Assembly: GCF_051903065.1 (NCBI RefSeq)
Contig: NZ_CP178438.1
Direction: 5' to 3' (one strand)
Length of the DNA: 64,000 bases
From: Escherichia coli
GTDB lineage: Bacteria; Pseudomonadota; Gammaproteobacteria; Enterobacterales; Enterobacteriaceae
Positions within the stretch are counted from its first letter, which is position 1. Every line of letters starts with the position of its first letter. Both the position numbers and the translations under genes were made by a program. A model generated the notes under the pieces. The model saw only the letters and a list, made by a program, of their open reading frames with translations. It was not told the DNA's origin and ran no database searches. Shown in pieces: positions 57,146-64,000 of this stretch.

Positions 57146-57172
57146 AGCGATACAGATGCCGCTATCCGCTTT
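57146..57172. terminator. Bidirectional hairpin terminator between ymgE and the convergent TonB-dependent receptor gene
   Basis: Stem gcggatagcg / cgctatccgc followed by a T-run; marks the junction between the K-12-like backbone and the accessory operon. Confidence 0.65.
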
Positions 57173-57176
57173 CACA

Positions 57177-59168
57177 TCAGAACGTATACTCGACACCTGC
57201 CCAGAAATTGCGGCCTTCTTCAATAAACCCTTCACTGTAGGCATATTGGGTATCAAACAGGTTATTGACCGACGCATTGACGCTGAAGCCATGACCTAAG
57301 GTGTAATCGGCTCGAATGTGGGTCACCGCAAAACCGGCGGCTTTTTGTGAACCGTCACTGTTGCTGTAGCTGGAGGAACGCGCCTCTTCCGACAGCGTTA
57401 CGCTTAACGGCTCCCACGGTTTGAGAGTCATCCATGCGGTCATTGTCTGCGTTGGCAGATCGGTTATCTTGCCGATGTCTTTGCGTTTGGCGTCAGCGTG
57501 GATCAGGGCGTAGCTCAATCCTACATCCAGTATATTGCTGATTTTCCCCTTAATACCGGCATCCAGACCGCTGTAATCCACCGTGCCGCTGTTCTGATTT
57601 TGAATGGTATCGGCATCGATATTGTGCGAGAGGATGGCATCACTCACCCGGTTATAGTAAACGCTGACCTCAAATCCCCAGTCGCGCGTGAAGGCACCAT
57701 TCCAGGTTAAATCCACCCCGCGAGCGCGTTCCGGCTTGAGCTGCGGGTTAACAATCGCTATCTGGTTATACGCAGGTTTGGATGTGGTATAGCGTTCTTT
57801 CAGCGTCGGAAAGCGTGTGCGGTCATAGTACGAAAGCGCCAGCGTGTCTTCATTGGCAAAGTGGTATTTCCCCATCACCTGCCAGTTAAAAGCTGACTGA
57901 TTGTTGTCGTCATAATGGGTGATGCTGCCATCTTTCTCGTGTTTTTTCGCTTCTACGCTATCGCGCCAGTCATAGCTGATTCCAGCCACAACATCGACAT
58001 TATCGGCAGCAGCCCATTGATATTCACTGGCGAGCGACCAGGTACGATCTTCATAGCGATCGTAAGCGGCGTGCGGCGCACCTTTTTCCCGGTGTACGTC
58101 ATCTTTCCAGTTAACGGCAAACGACAGCAGATCGTTTTCACGCACATCGGCTGCCAGTTGTAATCCGGCACCGTCGCTGTAATCGGAATAATGGCTGTAG
58201 CTGCCTTTTTTATTTTTCAAATCAGCCAGCGAGTTGTACATCATCAGCGTATTTTCAAAGGTGTCGCGATACAGCCGACTTTTCAGGGTAAAACGATCGT
58301 TTAGTTGGGTCGTTCCCTGATAATAAAAACTTTCTTTGTCATACTCTGGCCACTGCCAGTAGCGTGATTTTTGACCACTATTTCCGCTGTATGGCGGGTT
58401 ATCTTTTTCACCATCCTGCTTAATGTAAGTCAGTGTGTATTCATCGTTTTCACGTGGTGTAAATCCGAGCTTCACAATGCCGCGTTTATCATCAGCCGAT
58501 GAATTAATCATCTTGCCGTGTTTGCCTGCAATATCATTATTTACACCATGCGGCAGGCCGAGAAAATCCTGCTTTAGCTGGCTACCGCTGACTTGCAAAT
58601 ACCCCAGATCGCTACTGGCGGCAAATGAAGCATGTATATCGTAGGCATTGTCCTGGCTACGGCTCCATCCCTGGCGATATCCCAGACTTGCTTCCAGAGG
58701 TTTTGTTGGCTTCTGGGTGGTGATATTAATGGCTCCGCCCATCTGATTAGGCCCCTGAAGCAGCGACGAATACCCTTTGGAAACTTCGACTGCCCCCAGA
58801 TTGTTGGTCAGAATCCGCGCCAGATCGAGGTTGCCGTCATAGGGAACATAAATGGGCACACCGTCGAAATAGACCGGCACCTGCCGACTATCAAAGCCAC
58901 GAACTTTTACCTGTTCTTCGTTGCGGCTGCCTGACTTTTGCAGCACCACGCCGGGGACGACACTTAATGCCTGAGCGACATTCTGTTTATCCAGGGCCTT
59001 CATGGTGGGTTGATCGAGAACGGTGGTCGTCGTCGATGATACCGGACTGGACCATACGGTCAGCGAGTCGCTCTCCTGAGCCGCTACGGCCTGCTGGGTA
59101 AAGGCAAGTGATAATGCTGTGCAGAGATAATGTTTTTTGAGTCTCATAGAATAAATTCCGTTTAACAA
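57177..59168 (-). CDS. TonB-dependent outer-membrane receptor (BtuB-like small receptor)
   Basis: 663-aa ORF; signal peptide (MRLKKHYLCTALSLAFTQQAVAA, so the true start may be the internal Met near 59147); TonB-box-like DSLTVWS; plug and barrel; C-terminal ...WAGVEYTF with terminal Phe. Confidence 0.85.
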   Translation of the reverse strand: MLNGIYSMRLKKHYLCTALSLAFTQQAVAAQESDSLTVWSSPVSSTTTTVLDQPTMKALDKQNVAQALSVVPGVVLQKSGSRNEEQVKVRGFDSRQVPVYFDGVPIYVPYDGNLDLARILTNNLGAVEVSKGYSSLLQGPNQMGGAINITTQKPTKPLEASLGYRQGWSRSQDNAYDIHASFAASSDLGYLQVSGSQLKQDFLGLPHGVNNDIAGKHGKMINSSADDKRGIVKLGFTPRENDEYTLTYIKQDGEKDNPPYSGNSGQKSRYWQWPEYDKESFYYQGTTQLNDRFTLKSRLYRDTFENTLMMYNSLADLKNKKGSYSHYSDYSDGAGLQLAADVRENDLLSFAVNWKDDVHREKGAPHAAYDRYEDRTWSLASEYQWAAADNVDVVAGISYDWRDSVEAKKHEKDGSITHYDDNNQSAFNWQVMGKYHFANEDTLALSYYDRTRFPTLKERYTTSKPAYNQIAIVNPQLKPERARGVDLTWNGAFTRDWGFEVSVYYNRVSDAILSHNIDADTIQNQNSGTVDYSGLDAGIKGKISNILDVGLSYALIHADAKRKDIGKITDLPTQTMTAWMTLKPWEPLSVTLSEEARSSSYSNSDGSQKAAGFAVTHIRADYTLGHGFSVNASVNNLFDTQYAYSEGFIEEGRNFWAGVEYTF

Positions 59169-59172
59169 AGAA

Positions 59173-61604: not shown

Positions 61605-62581
61605 TGGCGACCTCCGCGTAACAACAAAAGCAGGAAAAACGGTGCGCCAACAAAAGCGGTCAGAATGCCAAGTGGGATTTCTGTTGTTCCAATGCTGCGT
61701 GCCAGCGTATCGGTAAGCAGGAGCAGAATCGCGCCAGTACACATTGCCATGGGCAACAGCTGCTGATGGTTATGACCGGTCAACAAGCGGGCAATGTGCG
61801 GAACGACCAGGCCGACCCAACCAATTATGCCCGCTATTGCTACCGTACTGGCGGTGATTAGTGTGGCGCAGACAATCAATCCAAAGCGCAGACGCGTCAC
61901 GTTCAGTCCCAGCGAACGGGCTTCGTCGTCGGAAAGCGTGAGTAAATTCATGCGCCAGCGGAGAAAAAACAGGGGCAAGGAGCCAATGAGAATGATCGGT
62001 GCAGCATAGCAGAGATCGCGTAAGGTCACGGTGGACAGTCCCCCCAGCAACCAGAAGGTAATTGACGGTAACTGGGTGTAAGGATCGGCCAGCGTTTTAA
62101 TTAGCGATATCCCCGCTCCGCACAACGTTCCTAACGCAATGCCTACCAGCACCAGGGTTAAGATCGGATCGTGGCGGGTCACCCGACGCGTAATCAACCA
62201 GACGCCCGCGACCACCATCAGCCCGCCGCAAAATGCGTACAGCTGGATGTAAACAATGGATAATCCCCACAGAATTGCCATGCAGGCACCAAGTCCGGCA
62301 CCGGCGGAGACGCCTAAAATATCCGGTGAAACTAAGGGATTACGCAACATTCCCTGATAGGTGGTTCCGGCTCCTGCCAGCGCCGCGCCCAGTAACAGCG
62401 CAGCAAGAATACGCGGCACGCGGATTTGCCAGAAGACAATTTGTTCCTGCACAGGAACATTTTCTTGACGAAGAATTAGCGCCAGCAGTTGCTGCATATC
62501 GAGATGATAAGCCCCACTTACGGCGGCAAAAGTGATACTGATAGCTGCCAGCAGCAAAATACATCCGTTTACGATTCTCAT
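61601..62581 (-). CDS. ABC transporter permease, FecCD/BtuC family
   Basis: 326-aa polytopic ORF; its ATG overlaps the stop of the binding-protein gene (TAATG). Confidence 0.85.
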   Translation of the reverse strand: MRIVNGCILLLAAISITFAAVSGAYHLDMQQLLALILRQENVPVQEQIVFWQIRVPRILAALLLGAALAGAGTTYQGMLRNPLVSPDILGVSAGAGLGACMAILWGLSIVYIQLYAFCGGLMVVAGVWLITRRVTRHDPILTLVLVGIALGTLCGAGISLIKTLADPYTQLPSITFWLLGGLSTVTLRDLCYAAPIILIGSLPLFFLRWRMNLLTLSDDEARSLGLNVTRLRFGLIVCATLITASTVAIAGIIGWVGLVVPHIARLLTGHNHQQLLPMAMCTGAILLLLTDTLARSIGTTEIPLGILTAFVGAPFFLLLLLRGGRQ

Positions 62582-63603
62582 TAGCTTGCCACCAATTTTT
62601 GATAGTCGGCGTCACTGAGTGAACAATGCCAGAACAGTTGGGCGTAATGCTGCATGTCACTTTTAAACTGGCGATTGATGGCGGGGTCCAGCCAGGCGTG
62701 AAGTCTGCGTAATCCCAGAAGACGGTTGATTCCCGGCGGGGCATCCAGCCAGCCAAAGGGCAAGCCACTTAAAAATAAGATGCGTTGTTCCGCAACGGCT
62801 TTCACGCCCTGCCAGAGAGGATCACGACGAATAAAATCTGCAGTAACGGCCTCCTGAACCAGAATAATATCCGGCTGCCAGCGCAGGAGATTTTCCATGG
62901 AAACCTGTGTCAGGCCGTGGCGATCGGCGATTTGCGCGACGTTGTGCAAACCTAATAATTCCGCCGCCTCGGTATGCAACGAACCCTTTAAGCCCGTTTC
63001 CAGCCCTCGAGGACCGCGCGCAGCATAAAAGCGGAGGTTAGCGGCGGGTGAGGTGGCGAATGCCTGAGCTTCAGCAACGAAGCGGCTGGCGAGATTGGCT
63101 TGTTCTGCGGCGCGATGCTCTTCGCCTAACGTTTTGCCAAGCGTTGTTAACTGTTCTGCTGATTGCGCCAGTTTCCCGTTAAGCAATAACCAGGGTATTT
63201 GTGTCTGTTCGCTAACCTGCCGTGCCTGGGAGATCCAGGTTTCATCCGTATTGCCGCAATCAACGACCAAATCGGGATGTAACGCCATAAGCCCTTCCAG
63301 CGAGAGTGTGCTGGCGCGCCCGGCGAGTCGTCCCAGCCTGGGTAACTGGCGAATGTGCTCTGGCAATGGAATTAATGCCTGACGGGCAAAATCAAAAGAG
63401 GAAAAACCGACCATTTTTTCTGGCGCGACAGCCAGCAATAGCAAATCGGCGGGCGCACCTGCGCTGACGATGCGTGTAATGTTTTGGGCTTCGGGAAGCG
63501 TCAGTGAGGCCCAGAATTTGACTGATTGTGCAAAAGAAGGCAGATGATGCAGGAACAACGTCGACGCAAGAATCTGTGTAAACCTCCGTCTGGTTAGTGA
63601 CAT
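62581..63603 (-). CDS. Periplasmic substrate-binding protein (iron-siderophore/cobalamin-type) with Tat-like signal peptide
   Basis: 340-aa ORF; N-terminus MSLTRRRFTQILASTLFLHHLPSFA contains a twin-arginine motif; first gene of the operon. Confidence 0.8.
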   Translation of the reverse strand: MSLTRRRFTQILASTLFLHHLPSFAQSVKFWASLTLPEAQNITRIVSAGAPADLLLLAVAPEKMVGFSSFDFARQALIPLPEHIRQLPRLGRLAGRASTLSLEGLMALHPDLVVDCGNTDETWISQARQVSEQTQIPWLLLNGKLAQSAEQLTTLGKTLGEEHRAAEQANLASRFVAEAQAFATSPAANLRFYAARGPRGLETGLKGSLHTEAAELLGLHNVAQIADRHGLTQVSMENLLRWQPDIILVQEAVTADFIRRDPLWQGVKAVAEQRILFLSGLPFGWLDAPPGINRLLGLRRLHAWLDPAINRQFKSDMQHYAQLFWHCSLSDADYQKLVAS

Positions 63604-64000
63604 AAGTTATATCCTGATAATTAAAACCGCTATATATTTACATATATATCGAAAAAAATCATGTTTGATGTCAAAATTTGTCTAAAGAGACAGAATGATT
63701 TGCTTGTTGTTTAAATAACACTTTGTTCCACAAGAAAATTGTCAGGGAGAATGGCGGAGTGGCGAAAAATATAAATAGAGGTGTACTGATTAACAAATTG
63801 ATAAAATAAAATTAAAATCTTCTCTGATATAAGAAAATAAAGGCATAGACCGTAGAATGGGGGGCATTTCGTGGCGAAAAAAGAGCAATGCCAATTTTAT
63901 GCACATAATGGCATTGCTCGATATACAGCAAAGTTAAGGCGTAGGTTCCGCCTCTTTTTGTTTTACCGGCTGTGTTGTTGATTCACTGAGTGGACGCGTC

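What the first reader, a model, noticed from the sequence alone, without database searches (positions are those of the whole stretch)
57146..63760. Six-gene TonB-dependent uptake operon that includes a ModD-like protein and a SAM methyltransferase
Where I expect the K-12 order ymgE-ycgY-treA, the window instead carries a tightly packed minus-strand operon: Tat-signal binding protein, FecCD-type permease, ABC ATPase, class I SAM methyltransferase, ModD-like protein, BtuB-like TonB-dependent receptor. The genes overlap or abut (TAATG, GTGA, 4-nt overlaps), which argues for co-transcription and translational coupling. A metal-chelate importer that also encodes a methyltransferase and a ModD/QPRTase-fold protein is not one of the E. 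coli uptake systems I can name (fec, fep, fhu, chu, btu, sit, fit, efe); the two enzymes suggest the imported substrate is modified or processed, or that a small molecule is made. I cannot assign a substrate from sequence. This is my best candidate for an under-characterised system in the window.
Basis: partly seen in the sequence, partly recalled or inferred. Interest (0 to 1): 0.78.

Follow-up and report, generated by a model that had tools for sequence, protein, structure and literature searches.

The report
Molybdenum-regulated TonB uptake operon, mislabelled iron
This six-gene outer-membrane-receptor/ABC-importer operon, present in about 40% of E. coli genomes and listed in the literature as a "possible iron uptake" locus, carries a near-perfect, cross-genus-conserved binding site for the molybdate sensor ModE, so it is most likely a molybdenum-starvation uptake system.

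Summary

My main result is regulatory. A 28-bp palindrome lies 23-50 nt upstream of the first gene. It matches the published E. coli ModE operator consensus at 20 of 22 specified positions. It is the only such site in the window (0 of 100 shuffles) and overlaps the predicted -10 region. I found no Fur box and no riboswitch.

The box is conserved upstream of the same operon in about ten other enterobacterial genera and in Shewanella. Where the receptor gene has its own promoter, a second box sits in front of it in 23 of 24 loci. A 45%-identical Pseudomonas aeruginosa receptor sits beside moaA and narGHJI behind a similar palindrome. The permease's best solved relative is MolB of the Haemophilus molybdate importer MolBC-A, which also neighbours modD.

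Best reading: a ModE-repressed, TonB-dependent molybdenum acquisition system. The substrate form and the roles of ModD and the methyltransferase remain inferred.

The parts
63626..63653 (.). ModE operator: 28-bp palindrome, TTCGATATATA-TGTAAA-TATATAGCGGT on the minus strand
   Evidence: It has 2 mismatches to the published E. coli consensus ATCGNTATATA-N6-TATATANCGAT (consensus from PMC545781). It is the only site with 3 or fewer mismatches in 64 kb, and none appeared in 100 shuffles. It lies 23-50 nt upstream of the ATG at 63603. The same geometry holds for the K-12 modA operator, which itself has 4 mismatches. The box is conserved in orthologous promoters.
63669..63674 (-). Candidate -35 hexamer TTGACA of the operon promoter
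   Evidence: Read directly from the sequence. It lies 15 nt upstream of the ModE box, so a -10 element at a 17-18 nt spacing falls inside the left arm of the box. TTGA(C/T) is kept at the same place in other genera. The transcription start was not determined.
63876..63919 (-). treA terminator (GAGCAATGCC...GGCATTGCTC followed by a T-run), which insulates the operon from treA read-through
   Evidence: Read from the sequence. The treA stop codon TAA is at 63934-63936.
62581..63603 (-). Periplasmic binding protein (Peripla_BP_2, class III/cluster A) with a twin-arginine signal
   Evidence: Pfam PF01497, 4e-17. Every named iron or B12 binding-protein model scores far below its cut-off. The RR motif is conserved in enterobacterial orthologues. 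The AlphaFold model (pLDDT 87.6) is closest to 4PAG (TM 0.79-0.82); MolA 3PSA ranks fifth (TM 0.66-0.69).
61601..62581 (-). FecCD-family type II ABC importer permease, MolB-like
   Evidence: The best solved relative is HI1471 (MolB), 9.8e-65 and 222 bits. FhuB is next at 173 bits and BtuC scores 141.
60846..61604 (-). ABC ATPase ('fepC' in the literature)
   Evidence: HI1470 (MolC) scores 1.3e-35 and is among the top solved matches. The GTG start overlaps the permease stop codon.
60024..60836 (-). Class I SAM-dependent methyltransferase ('yc73')
59173..60027 (-). ModD (quinolinate phosphoribosyltransferase fold)
   Evidence: TIGR01334 scores 505 bits against a cut-off of 179. NadC scores 135 bits, below its cut-off of 198. 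In the alignment to M. tuberculosis QPRTase, R139/K140/H161/R162/E201/D222 are kept, R105 becomes K94 and K172 becomes F163.
57177..59147 (-). TonB-dependent outer-membrane receptor ('prrA')
   Evidence: Plug and barrel domains PF07715 and PF00593. The TonB-box-like DSLTVWS follows the signal peptide and is conserved as (D/E)(T/S)(L/M)TVWSSP. The C-terminus ends in ...EYTF.
57140..57169 (.). Hairpin GCGGATAGCG-N10-CGCTATCCGC between the convergent prrA and ymgE genes, a probable bidirectional terminator
   Evidence: Read from the sequence. It is retained in K-12-type genomes together with the last 21 nt of prrA.

Best explanation
The six genes form one operon that is switched off by molybdate-bound ModE and expressed when the cell runs short of molybdenum. 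It most likely encodes a TonB-energised uptake route for molybdenum. The proposed steps are as follows. PrrA carries molybdate (or tungstate, or a labile Mo complex) across the outer membrane. The Tat-exported class III binding protein passes it to a MolB/MolC-like type II ABC importer. ModD (a QPRTase-fold enzyme with an altered acid-binding site) and the Yc73 methyltransferase act in the cytoplasm on the imported species or on a co-substrate. When cytoplasmic molybdate is sufficient, ModE-molybdate binds the 28-bp palindrome that overlaps the -10 region and start site, and blocks transcription.

What is shown: the gene content, the operator match and its rarity, its conservation across genera, and the homologies. 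What is inferred: ModE binding, the sign of regulation, the substrate, and the roles of the two enzymes.
For: 1. Operator. There are 2 mismatches to the published ModE consensus, and it is the only such site in the window, with none in 100 shuffles. It matches the consensus better than the footprinted K-12 modA operator (4 mismatches), and it lies at the same distance from the ATG.
2. Geometry. Only 22 nt separate the box from the start codon, and a TTGACA lies 15 nt upstream. The box must therefore overlap or follow the promoter, which is the repressor arrangement.
3. Phylogenetic footprint. The same six-gene order occurs in 41 species-level loci from Escherichia, Citrobacter, Raoultella, Enterobacter, Klebsiella indica, Pantoea, Pectobacterium, Proteus, Morganella and Providencia. 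A box upstream of the binding-protein gene has 3 or fewer mismatches in 24 loci and 5 or fewer in 36, while the flanks diverge. In all, 67 boxes with 3 or fewer mismatches occur in 1.38 Mb of loci, against 0 after shuffling.
4. Independent control of the receptor. In 23 of the 24 loci where the ModD-receptor spacer exceeds 90 nt, a second box (3 or fewer mismatches) lies 11-50 nt before the receptor gene. Shewanella has 1-mismatch boxes before both the binding-protein gene and the receptor gene.
5. Distant receptor homologue. A 45%-identical P. aeruginosa receptor is followed by an Oxidored_molyb gene, moaA and narIJHG. It is preceded by the palindrome ATCGTTATGTA-N6-TGCATAACGAG, 13 nt from its ATG.
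6. Relatives. The permease's best solved match is MolB of the H. influenzae molybdate/tungstate importer (222 bits), whose operon is repressed by molybdate and lies next to modD.
7. ModD context elsewhere. ModD sits behind ModE boxes with modA-type transporters in Pasteurella canis and alone in Photobacterium.
8. No competing signal. There is no Fur, Zur or NikR box above chance, no Fur enrichment in 42 orthologous promoters, and no riboswitch.
Against: There are no expression or transport data for this locus. The literature assigns it to iron, although without experiment. The binding protein is not a MolA orthologue: it shares 22% identity, and a structural-genomics protein of unknown ligand is closer. 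In Glaesserella, its orthologue is encoded alongside a second type II ABC system. Free molybdate is small enough for porins, so the need for a TonB-dependent gate is not obvious. H. influenzae MolA binds molybdate only weakly, about 100 uM. Two enzymes with no known role in molybdate handling are unexplained. The methyltransferase is a pseudogene in O157:H7. The transcription start is unknown. An AT-rich palindrome could in principle serve another regulator.
Confidence: 0.6

Rival explanations
1. The cargo is an organic molybdenum complex: a 'molybdophore' such as a Mo-catecholate or Mo-pyridine-carboxylate, or a pterin-type cofactor fragment. ModD and the methyltransferase would destroy or recycle the organic ligand in the cytoplasm to release Mo. 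Regulation by ModE is the same as in the best explanation; only the cargo differs.
For: TonB-dependent receptors with class III binding proteins and type II ABC importers normally carry bulky chelates or cofactors; the nearest named families are B12, heme and siderophore systems. Two cytoplasmic small-molecule enzymes are co-transcribed. ModD keeps the PRPP and ring-binding residues of QPRTase, with a changed acid-binding site.
Against: P. aeruginosa and Intestinirhabdus alba keep the receptor without the dedicated ABC importer, which suggests the periplasmic product can use ModABC, i.e. that it is free molybdate. ModD also occurs in operons with modA-type molybdate transporters and with no receptor. 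Shewanella has the transporter and the methyltransferase but no ModD. The cluster contains no biosynthesis or export genes for such a ligand.
Confidence: 0.2
2. This is a molybdenum-sparing backup rather than a Mo importer. When Mo is scarce the cell imports an organic nutrient (for example a pyridine, purine or pterin-like compound), and ModD and the methyltransferase process it, bypassing a step that normally needs a molybdoenzyme.
For: ModE-type repressors in other bacteria also switch on Mo-independent isoenzymes (established knowledge, e.g. anfA in Rhodobacter). ModD has a phosphoribosyltransferase fold suited to N-heterocyclic acids. The substrate of the binding protein is unknown.
Against: ModD is co-operonic with bona fide modA-type molybdate transporters. 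The closest characterised importer transports molybdate. The P. aeruginosa receptor homologue sits next to moaA and nar, genes that consume Mo rather than spare it.
Confidence: 0.1
3. It is an iron-chelate (siderophore or heme-like) uptake system, as annotated by RefSeq and assumed in the pathogenomics literature.
For: RefSeq product names read 'iron ABC transporter substrate-binding protein' and 'TonB-dependent siderophore receptor'. Papers list it among iron loci. There is general family resemblance to the Fec, Fhu and heme systems.
Against: No Fur box is present. The best match has 6 of 19 mismatches, which is chance level (35 such sites in the window), and there is no enrichment over shuffles in 42 orthologous promoters. 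All iron-specific NCBIfam models score far below their cut-offs, for example 29 bits against 320 for FecB. The conserved promoter element is a ModE box. None of the papers read reports an experiment.
Confidence: 0.05
4. The system handles another group-6 or look-alike oxyanion (tungstate, vanadate, chromate, or tellurite/selenite). The methyltransferase would detoxify the co-imported anion.
For: ModE and MolA also respond to tungstate. SAM methyltransferases detoxify some oxyanions (established knowledge: TehB, ArsM). There is a weak ArsM-type hit, E 1e-4.
Against: E. coli has no known tungsten requirement. The methyltransferase hits are generic fold matches. The genomic neighbours in Pseudomonas are Mo-specific.
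Confidence: 0.05

Closest known systems
Haemophilus influenzae MolBC-A (HI1470-HI1472) molybdate/tungstate type II ABC importer, with adjacent modD (HI1473)
   Same: The FecCD-type permease is the best solved match (222 bits, roughly 45% identity in the printed alignment). The ATPase matches MolC. A class III binding protein is present, modD is a neighbour, and transcription is repressed by molybdate.
   Different: The binding protein is only about 22% identical to MolA and is structurally closer to 4PAG. The E. coli operon adds a TonB-dependent receptor and a methyltransferase. Glaesserella carries the E. coli-type genes alongside a second type II ABC system and ModD, so the two systems look like paralogues. 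The regulator of mol was called 'unknown', whereas here a ModE operator is evident.
E. coli ModE regulon: the modABC operator
   Same: The same 28-bp palindrome class lies at the same distance from the start codon and overlaps the promoter.
   Different: ModABC is a type I importer with a class II binding protein and no outer-membrane component. The present operon is absent from K-12, the strain in which the ModE regulon was mostly defined.
TonB-dependent receptor plus class III binding protein plus type II ABC importer systems (BtuB-BtuFCD, FhuA-FhuDCB, FecA-FecBCDE, heme systems)
   Same: The three-compartment architecture, the TonB box, and a twin-arginine signal on the binding protein, as in FhuD (the FhuD comparison is from memory).
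   Different: No Fur box or B12 riboswitch is present. Every substrate-specific model scores below its cut-off. Two enzymes are embedded in the operon.
TonB-dependent receptors for non-iron metals (ZnuD, OprC/NosA, FrpB4; recalled from memory, not tested here)
   Same: The concept of a metal-regulator-controlled outer-membrane gate for a small ion.
   Different: Those are controlled by Zur, copper or NikR and carry cations. Here the regulator is ModE and the likely cargo is an oxyanion. No TonB-dependent molybdenum transporter turned up in my literature searches.
Quinolinate phosphoribosyltransferase NadC
   Same: The fold and most of the active-site residues.
   Different: ModD scores below the NadC cut-off (135 against 198). 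Mtb K172 is replaced by a family-conserved Phe, and R105 by Lys. ModD is always found in Mo-related operons.

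Membership tests
ModE regulon (molybdate-responsive operator) | Inverted repeat matching ATCGNTATATA-N6-TATATANCGAT | tested here: met
   20 of 22 specified positions match at 63626-63653. 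It is unique in the window, with none in 100 shuffles.
ModE regulon (molybdate-responsive operator) | Site positioned so that it overlaps the promoter or start site (repression) | tested here: inconclusive
   The box ends 22 nt before the ATG and starts 15 nt after a TTGACA, so it must overlap the -10 region or start site. The transcription start has not been mapped.
ModE regulon (molybdate-responsive operator) | Site conserved upstream of orthologous genes in other genomes | tested here: met
   Of 41 loci, 24 have a box with 3 or fewer mismatches and 36 have one with 5 or fewer. There are receptor-proximal boxes in 23 of 24 loci, 1-mismatch boxes in Shewanella, and a related palindrome in Pseudomonas.
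ModE regulon (molybdate-responsive operator) | Molybdate-dependent ModE binding and regulation in vivo | not testable with these tools
   This needs EMSA or footprinting and expression assays.
MolBC-A type II molybdate/tungstate ABC importer | Permease and ATPase closest to MolB and MolC | tested here: met
   MolB is the top solved match at 222 bits against 173 for the next. MolC scores 125.9 bits, among the top full-length matches.
MolBC-A type II molybdate/tungstate ABC importer | Binding protein orthologous to MolA | tested here: not met
   The phmmer match to 3PSA is only partial (2.6e-8). Identity is 22% and TM 0.66-0.69, and 4PAG is closer. I therefore do not file this as a MolBC-A orthologue, only as a relative.
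MolBC-A type II molybdate/tungstate ABC importer | Binds and transports molybdate or tungstate | not testable with these tools
   This needs ITC and transport assays.
TonB-dependent transporter | Plug and 22-strand barrel domains, an N-terminal TonB box, and a C-terminal aromatic residue | tested here: met
   PF07715 and PF00593 are present, with TIGR01783/01785 hits. DSLTVWS is conserved. The C-terminus is ...EYTF.
ModD (TIGR01334) versus NadC | Score above the curated family cut-off | tested here: met
   ModD scores 505 bits against a cut-off of 179. NadC scores 135 against 198, which is not met.
ModD (TIGR01334) versus NadC | Full set of quinolinate-binding residues of QPRTase | tested here: not met
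   Mtb K172 is replaced by F163 (nearly invariant in ModD) and R105 by K94. R139, K140, H161, R162, E201 and D222 are kept. The residue roles are from memory of Sharma et al. 1998.
Fur-regulated iron-chelate uptake system (current annotation) | Fur box in the promoter | tested here: not met
   The best match has 6 of 19 mismatches, at chance level. There is no enrichment in 42 orthologous promoters.
Fur-regulated iron-chelate uptake system (current annotation) | Components reach the cut-offs of iron-specific family models | tested here: not met
   FecB scores 29 against 320, FepB 24 against 205, and the receptor models all fall below their cut-offs.
Class I SAM-dependent methyltransferase | Rossmann-like fold with the glycine-rich motif I and an acidic residue after strand 2 | tested here: met

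The most novel reading that the evidence does not exclude
PrrA and its relatives form a previously unrecognised family of ModE-controlled TonB-dependent outer-membrane transporters for molybdenum. The family is spread through Enterobacterales, Shewanella, Pasteurellaceae and Pseudomonas aeruginosa. If this holds, molybdenum joins iron, B12, nickel, zinc and copper as a nutrient taken up actively across the outer membrane. It would also mean that a locus used for 25 years as an ExPEC/EHEC 'iron uptake' marker is in fact a molybdenum-starvation system, with two new cytoplasmic Mo-handling enzymes (ModD and Yc73).
Probability: 0.5. Interest if true: 0.85.

Novelty: new variant of a known kind. 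Interest (0 to 1): 0.7.

Why it matters
Molybdenum is needed for nitrate, formate, DMSO and TMAO respiration, which drive Enterobacteriaceae blooms in the inflamed gut and growth in urine. Current models of bacterial Mo uptake start at the periplasm (ModABC), and molybdate is assumed to cross the outer membrane passively.

A ModE-regulated TonB-dependent receptor with its own importer would add an active outer-membrane step. It would explain the long-orphaned ModD protein's constant association with Mo operons. It would also identify ModE as a candidate for the 'unknown factor' that represses the Haemophilus mol operon.

The locus is present in about 40% of E. coli genomes (ST131, O157:H7, LF82, APEC), in Proteus, Providencia and Morganella, and, as a stand-alone receptor, in P. 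aeruginosa. Reassigning it from iron to molybdenum would therefore change how it is read in virulence-gene surveys. The idea is directly testable with simple genetics.

Tried and rejected
- **Riboswitch control.** I scanned 56500-64000 against Rfam at E<=1 for cobalamin or Moco riboswitches. Nothing relevant appeared.
- **Other metal regulators.** Fur, Zur, NikR, FNR and CRP consensus scans of the promoter gave nothing above chance. Fur boxes in 42 orthologous promoters were no more frequent than in shuffles.
- **Anti-phage defence.** PADLOC gave only generic ATPase and methyltransferase domain hits.
- **YcgY as a remnant of an island gene.** There is no similarity.
- **Substrate clue from the binding-protein fold.** The nearest structure, 4PAG, is a structural-genomics entry whose description names no ligand.
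- **The Glaesserella binding protein next to ModD as a MolA orthologue.** It is only a distant relative.
- **The sigma-70 scan tool.** It did not call the promoter, because the -10 region is buried in the palindrome.
- **The search for related loci with a 60-sequence ModD alignment.** It failed because the alignment was too diverse. An 18-sequence alignment worked.
- **Literature.** No paper in the held library links prrA/modD/yc73/fepC or any TonB-dependent receptor to molybdenum. Two key papers are not held: Studholme and Pau 2003, and Tirado-Lee et al. 2011. Supplementary data of the Proteus modA RNA-seq paper are also not held.

Full report
**Observation.** The window carries six minus-strand ORFs between ymgE (56873-57127, + strand) and the 3' end of treA.
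- A periplasmic binding protein at 62581-63603, with the N-terminus MSLTRRRFTQ.
- A FecCD permease at 61601-62581.
- An ABC ATPase at 60846-61604, using the RefSeq GTG start.
- A class I SAM methyltransferase at 60024-60836.
- ModD at 59173-60027.
- A TonB-dependent receptor at 57177-59147.

The junctions read TAATG, GTGA, a 9-nt spacer with AAGGA, ATGA, and a 25-nt spacer. A treA terminator (63876-63919) lies upstream. A hairpin (57140-57169) lies between the receptor gene and the convergent ymgE.

K-12-type genomes have ycgY at this place. The island is present once in 2149 of 5426 complete E. coli genomes, including ST131 JJ1886, O157:H7, LF82 and avian strains.

**Gene families.**
- ModD matches TIGR01334 at 505 bits (cut-off 179) and falls below the NadC cut-off.
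- The permease, ATPase, binding protein and receptor match many iron, heme and B12 models, but every one scores far below its curated cut-off.
- Against solved structures, the permease is clearly closest to HI1471 (MolB) of Haemophilus influenzae: 222 bits, against 173 for FhuB and 141 for BtuC.
- The ATPase matches HI1470 (MolC).
- The binding protein matches a Sulfurospirillum structural-genomics protein (4PAG) best. It matches MolA (3PSA) only weakly by sequence and at rank 5 by fold (TM 0.66-0.69; model pLDDT 87.6).
- MolBC-A is an experimentally studied low-affinity molybdate/tungstate importer. Its operon lies beside modD (HI1473) and is repressed by molybdate through a factor the authors called unknown (PMC4031551; PMC3928620).

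**The regulatory element.** On the coding strand, the promoter region reads TTGACA-N15-TTCGATATATATGTAAATATATAGCGGT-N22-ATG. The published E. coli ModE consensus is ATCGNTATATA-N6-TATATANCGAT (PMC545781).
- The window holds exactly one site with 3 or fewer mismatches, at 63626-63653. It has 2 mismatches, and none occurred in 100 dinucleotide shuffles.
- The footprinted K-12 modA operator (CGTTATATTGTCGCCTACATAACG) has 4 mismatches on the same scale. It lies 21 nt from the modA ATG, which is the same geometry.
- Only 22 nt separate the box from the start codon. No promoter can fit downstream of it, so the box must overlap or follow the promoter. That is the repressor arrangement, not the upstream-activator arrangement used at moaA.
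- ModE binds DNA when loaded with molybdate (established knowledge). The predicted behaviour is therefore expression under molybdenum shortage.
- No Fur, Zur or NikR box rises above chance, and no Rfam family matches.

**Comparative test.** A scan of one genome per species with a ModD alignment returned 80 loci.
- The same six genes in the same order occur in 41 of them. The genera are Escherichia, Citrobacter, Raoultella, Enterobacter, Klebsiella indica, Pantoea, Pectobacterium, Proteus, Morganella and Providencia, at 45-98% protein identity.
- A ModE box lies 8-44 nt before the binding-protein gene in all but one of the 40 loci that have one. It has 3 or fewer mismatches in 24 loci and 5 or fewer in 36 (0 mismatches in Raoultella). 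The surrounding sequence is unalignable between genera.
- In the 24 loci where the ModD-receptor spacer has grown beyond 90 nt (Proteus, Morganella, Providencia, Pectobacterium), 23 have a second box with 3 or fewer mismatches, 11-50 nt before the receptor gene. None of the 17 loci with short spacers has one.
- Altogether, 67 boxes with 3 or fewer mismatches occur in 1.38 Mb of these loci, against none after shuffling.
- Fur-consensus matches in the orthologous promoters are no better than in shuffled sequence.

**Beyond the Enterobacterales.**
- The receptor family extends further. Shewanella has binding protein-permease-ATPase-methyltransferase, a terminator, then the receptor. It has no ModD, and 1-mismatch boxes lie 22 nt before both the binding-protein gene and the receptor gene.
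- In Pseudomonas aeruginosa, a 45%-identical receptor is found in over 2000 assembly blocks. It stands alone, is overlapped by a small Oxidored_molyb gene, and is followed by moaA, a PpiC isomerase gene and narIJHG. The palindrome ATCGTTATGTAAAAAAATGCATAACGAG precedes it by 13 nt, with arms as in the K-12 modA operator.
- Glaesserella australis has three box-preceded operons around ModD: receptor-ATPase-methyltransferase; a second type II ABC system plus ModD; and the E. coli-type binding protein and permease.
- Pasteurella canis has box-modA-type binding protein-Mo permease-ATPase-ModD.
- Edwardsiella has box-methyltransferase-ModD. Intestinirhabdus alba has treA-box (0 mismatches)-methyltransferase-ModD-receptor, without the ABC genes.
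- Each component is thus tied to ModE boxes independently of the others.

- No paper in the held library connects it, or any TonB-dependent receptor, with molybdenum.
- A 2022 study of P. aeruginosa Mo homeostasis never mentions TonB or the outer membrane.
- Caveat: Studholme and Pau 2003 and Tirado-Lee 2011 are not held, and I could not consult RegPrecise. A prior in-silico listing of the site cannot be excluded.

**Mechanism proposed.**
- Shown: the operon structure, the ModE-type operator and its conservation, the MolB/MolC relationship, and the Mo-gene neighbourhoods of the receptor family.
- Inferred: molybdate-ModE represses the operon. Under Mo shortage, PrrA uses TonB energy to bring molybdenum across the outer membrane. 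The Tat-exported binding protein (RR motif conserved) delivers it to the type II importer.
- I favour free molybdate or tungstate, or a complex that dissociates in the periplasm, as the outer-membrane cargo. Pseudomonas and I. alba keep the receptor without the dedicated ABC system, and MolA binds the free oxyanion. A stable Mo chelate is the main alternative.
- ModD keeps QPRTase residues R139, K140, H161, R162, E201 and D222. It replaces K172 by a family-conserved Phe and R105 by Lys. It is thus probably a phosphoribosyltransferase for something other than quinolinate.
- The methyltransferase has intact SAM motifs and a generic small-molecule methyltransferase fold.
- The chemistry of both enzymes is unknown. 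Because they also occur with modA-type transporters or alone behind ModE boxes, I place them in cytoplasmic Mo handling rather than in transport.

**Rivals.**
- Iron uptake is contradicted by the absence of Fur control and by sub-threshold family scores.
- A Mo-sparing nutrient importer, or another oxyanion as cargo, cannot be excluded. Both fit the neighbourhood data less well.

**Verdict.** The new content is that this widespread 'iron' locus is a conserved member of the ModE regulon and a relative of MolBC-A with a dedicated TonB-dependent receptor. It is the best current candidate for active outer-membrane uptake of molybdenum.
- Confidence that ModE controls it: about 0.8.
- Confidence that it imports molybdenum in some form: about 0.6-0.7.
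- The roles of ModD and Yc73 remain open.

Noticed in passing
window 57180-57200 and L002 4381-4401: K-12-type genomes keep the last 21 nt (7 codons, AGVEYTF*) of prrA plus the terminator hairpin next to ymgE. Similarity then breaks off into the ycgY segment. The K-12 state therefore looks like a deletion or replacement of the island rather than the ancestral empty site. On the other side, the treA 3' end (C-terminal tail) differs between the two types.
   Followed up: partly
L001 (O157:H7 RV06) 7225-8037, 1826-3873, 11140-12824: In this O157:H7 genome the yc73 methyltransferase has an internal stop, ycgR is split by an IS3-family element, and treA is frameshifted. In the Sakai strain the methyltransferase is annotated as two ORFs (ECs1695 and ECs1696).
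   Followed up: no
L084 7961-10525 (Pseudomonas aeruginosa): A stand-alone PrrA homologue (45% identity) overlaps a 182-aa Oxidored_molyb gene. It sits beside moaA, a PpiC isomerase gene and narIJHG. A ModE-like palindrome lies 13 nt before its ATG. The gene is present in over 2000 assembly blocks.
   Followed up: partly
L081 6062-6089, 4903-4930, 11877-11904 (Glaesserella australis): Three ModE-like boxes precede three operons around ModD. One precedes a MolBC-like type II ABC system. This suggests that the 'unknown factor' reported to repress the H. influenzae mol operon in response to molybdate is ModE.
   Followed up: partly
L065 7821-9861 (Photobacterium damselae): ModD is transcribed divergently from a COG0523/CobW-like GTPase gene. 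A 1-mismatch ModE box lies directly before ModD. This hints at a metallochaperone link.
   Followed up: no
L023 938-6567 (Intestinirhabdus alba): The same chromosomal site (treA on one side, ldcA on the other) carries only methyltransferase-ModD-receptor behind a perfect ModE box. The three ABC genes are missing.
   Followed up: partly
protein P0274 (E. coli, 720 aa): A database protein combines PilZ and YcgR domains with the Plug and barrel of PrrA at 94% identity. It is presumably a gene-call or deletion chimera spanning ycgR-ymgE-prrA.
   Followed up: no
L008 (Citrobacter braakii) around 5400-5530: This is the only six-gene locus with no ModE box of 6 or fewer mismatches before the binding-protein gene. 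The tblastn match to the binding protein also starts late there, so the promoter and 5' end may be rearranged.
   Followed up: no
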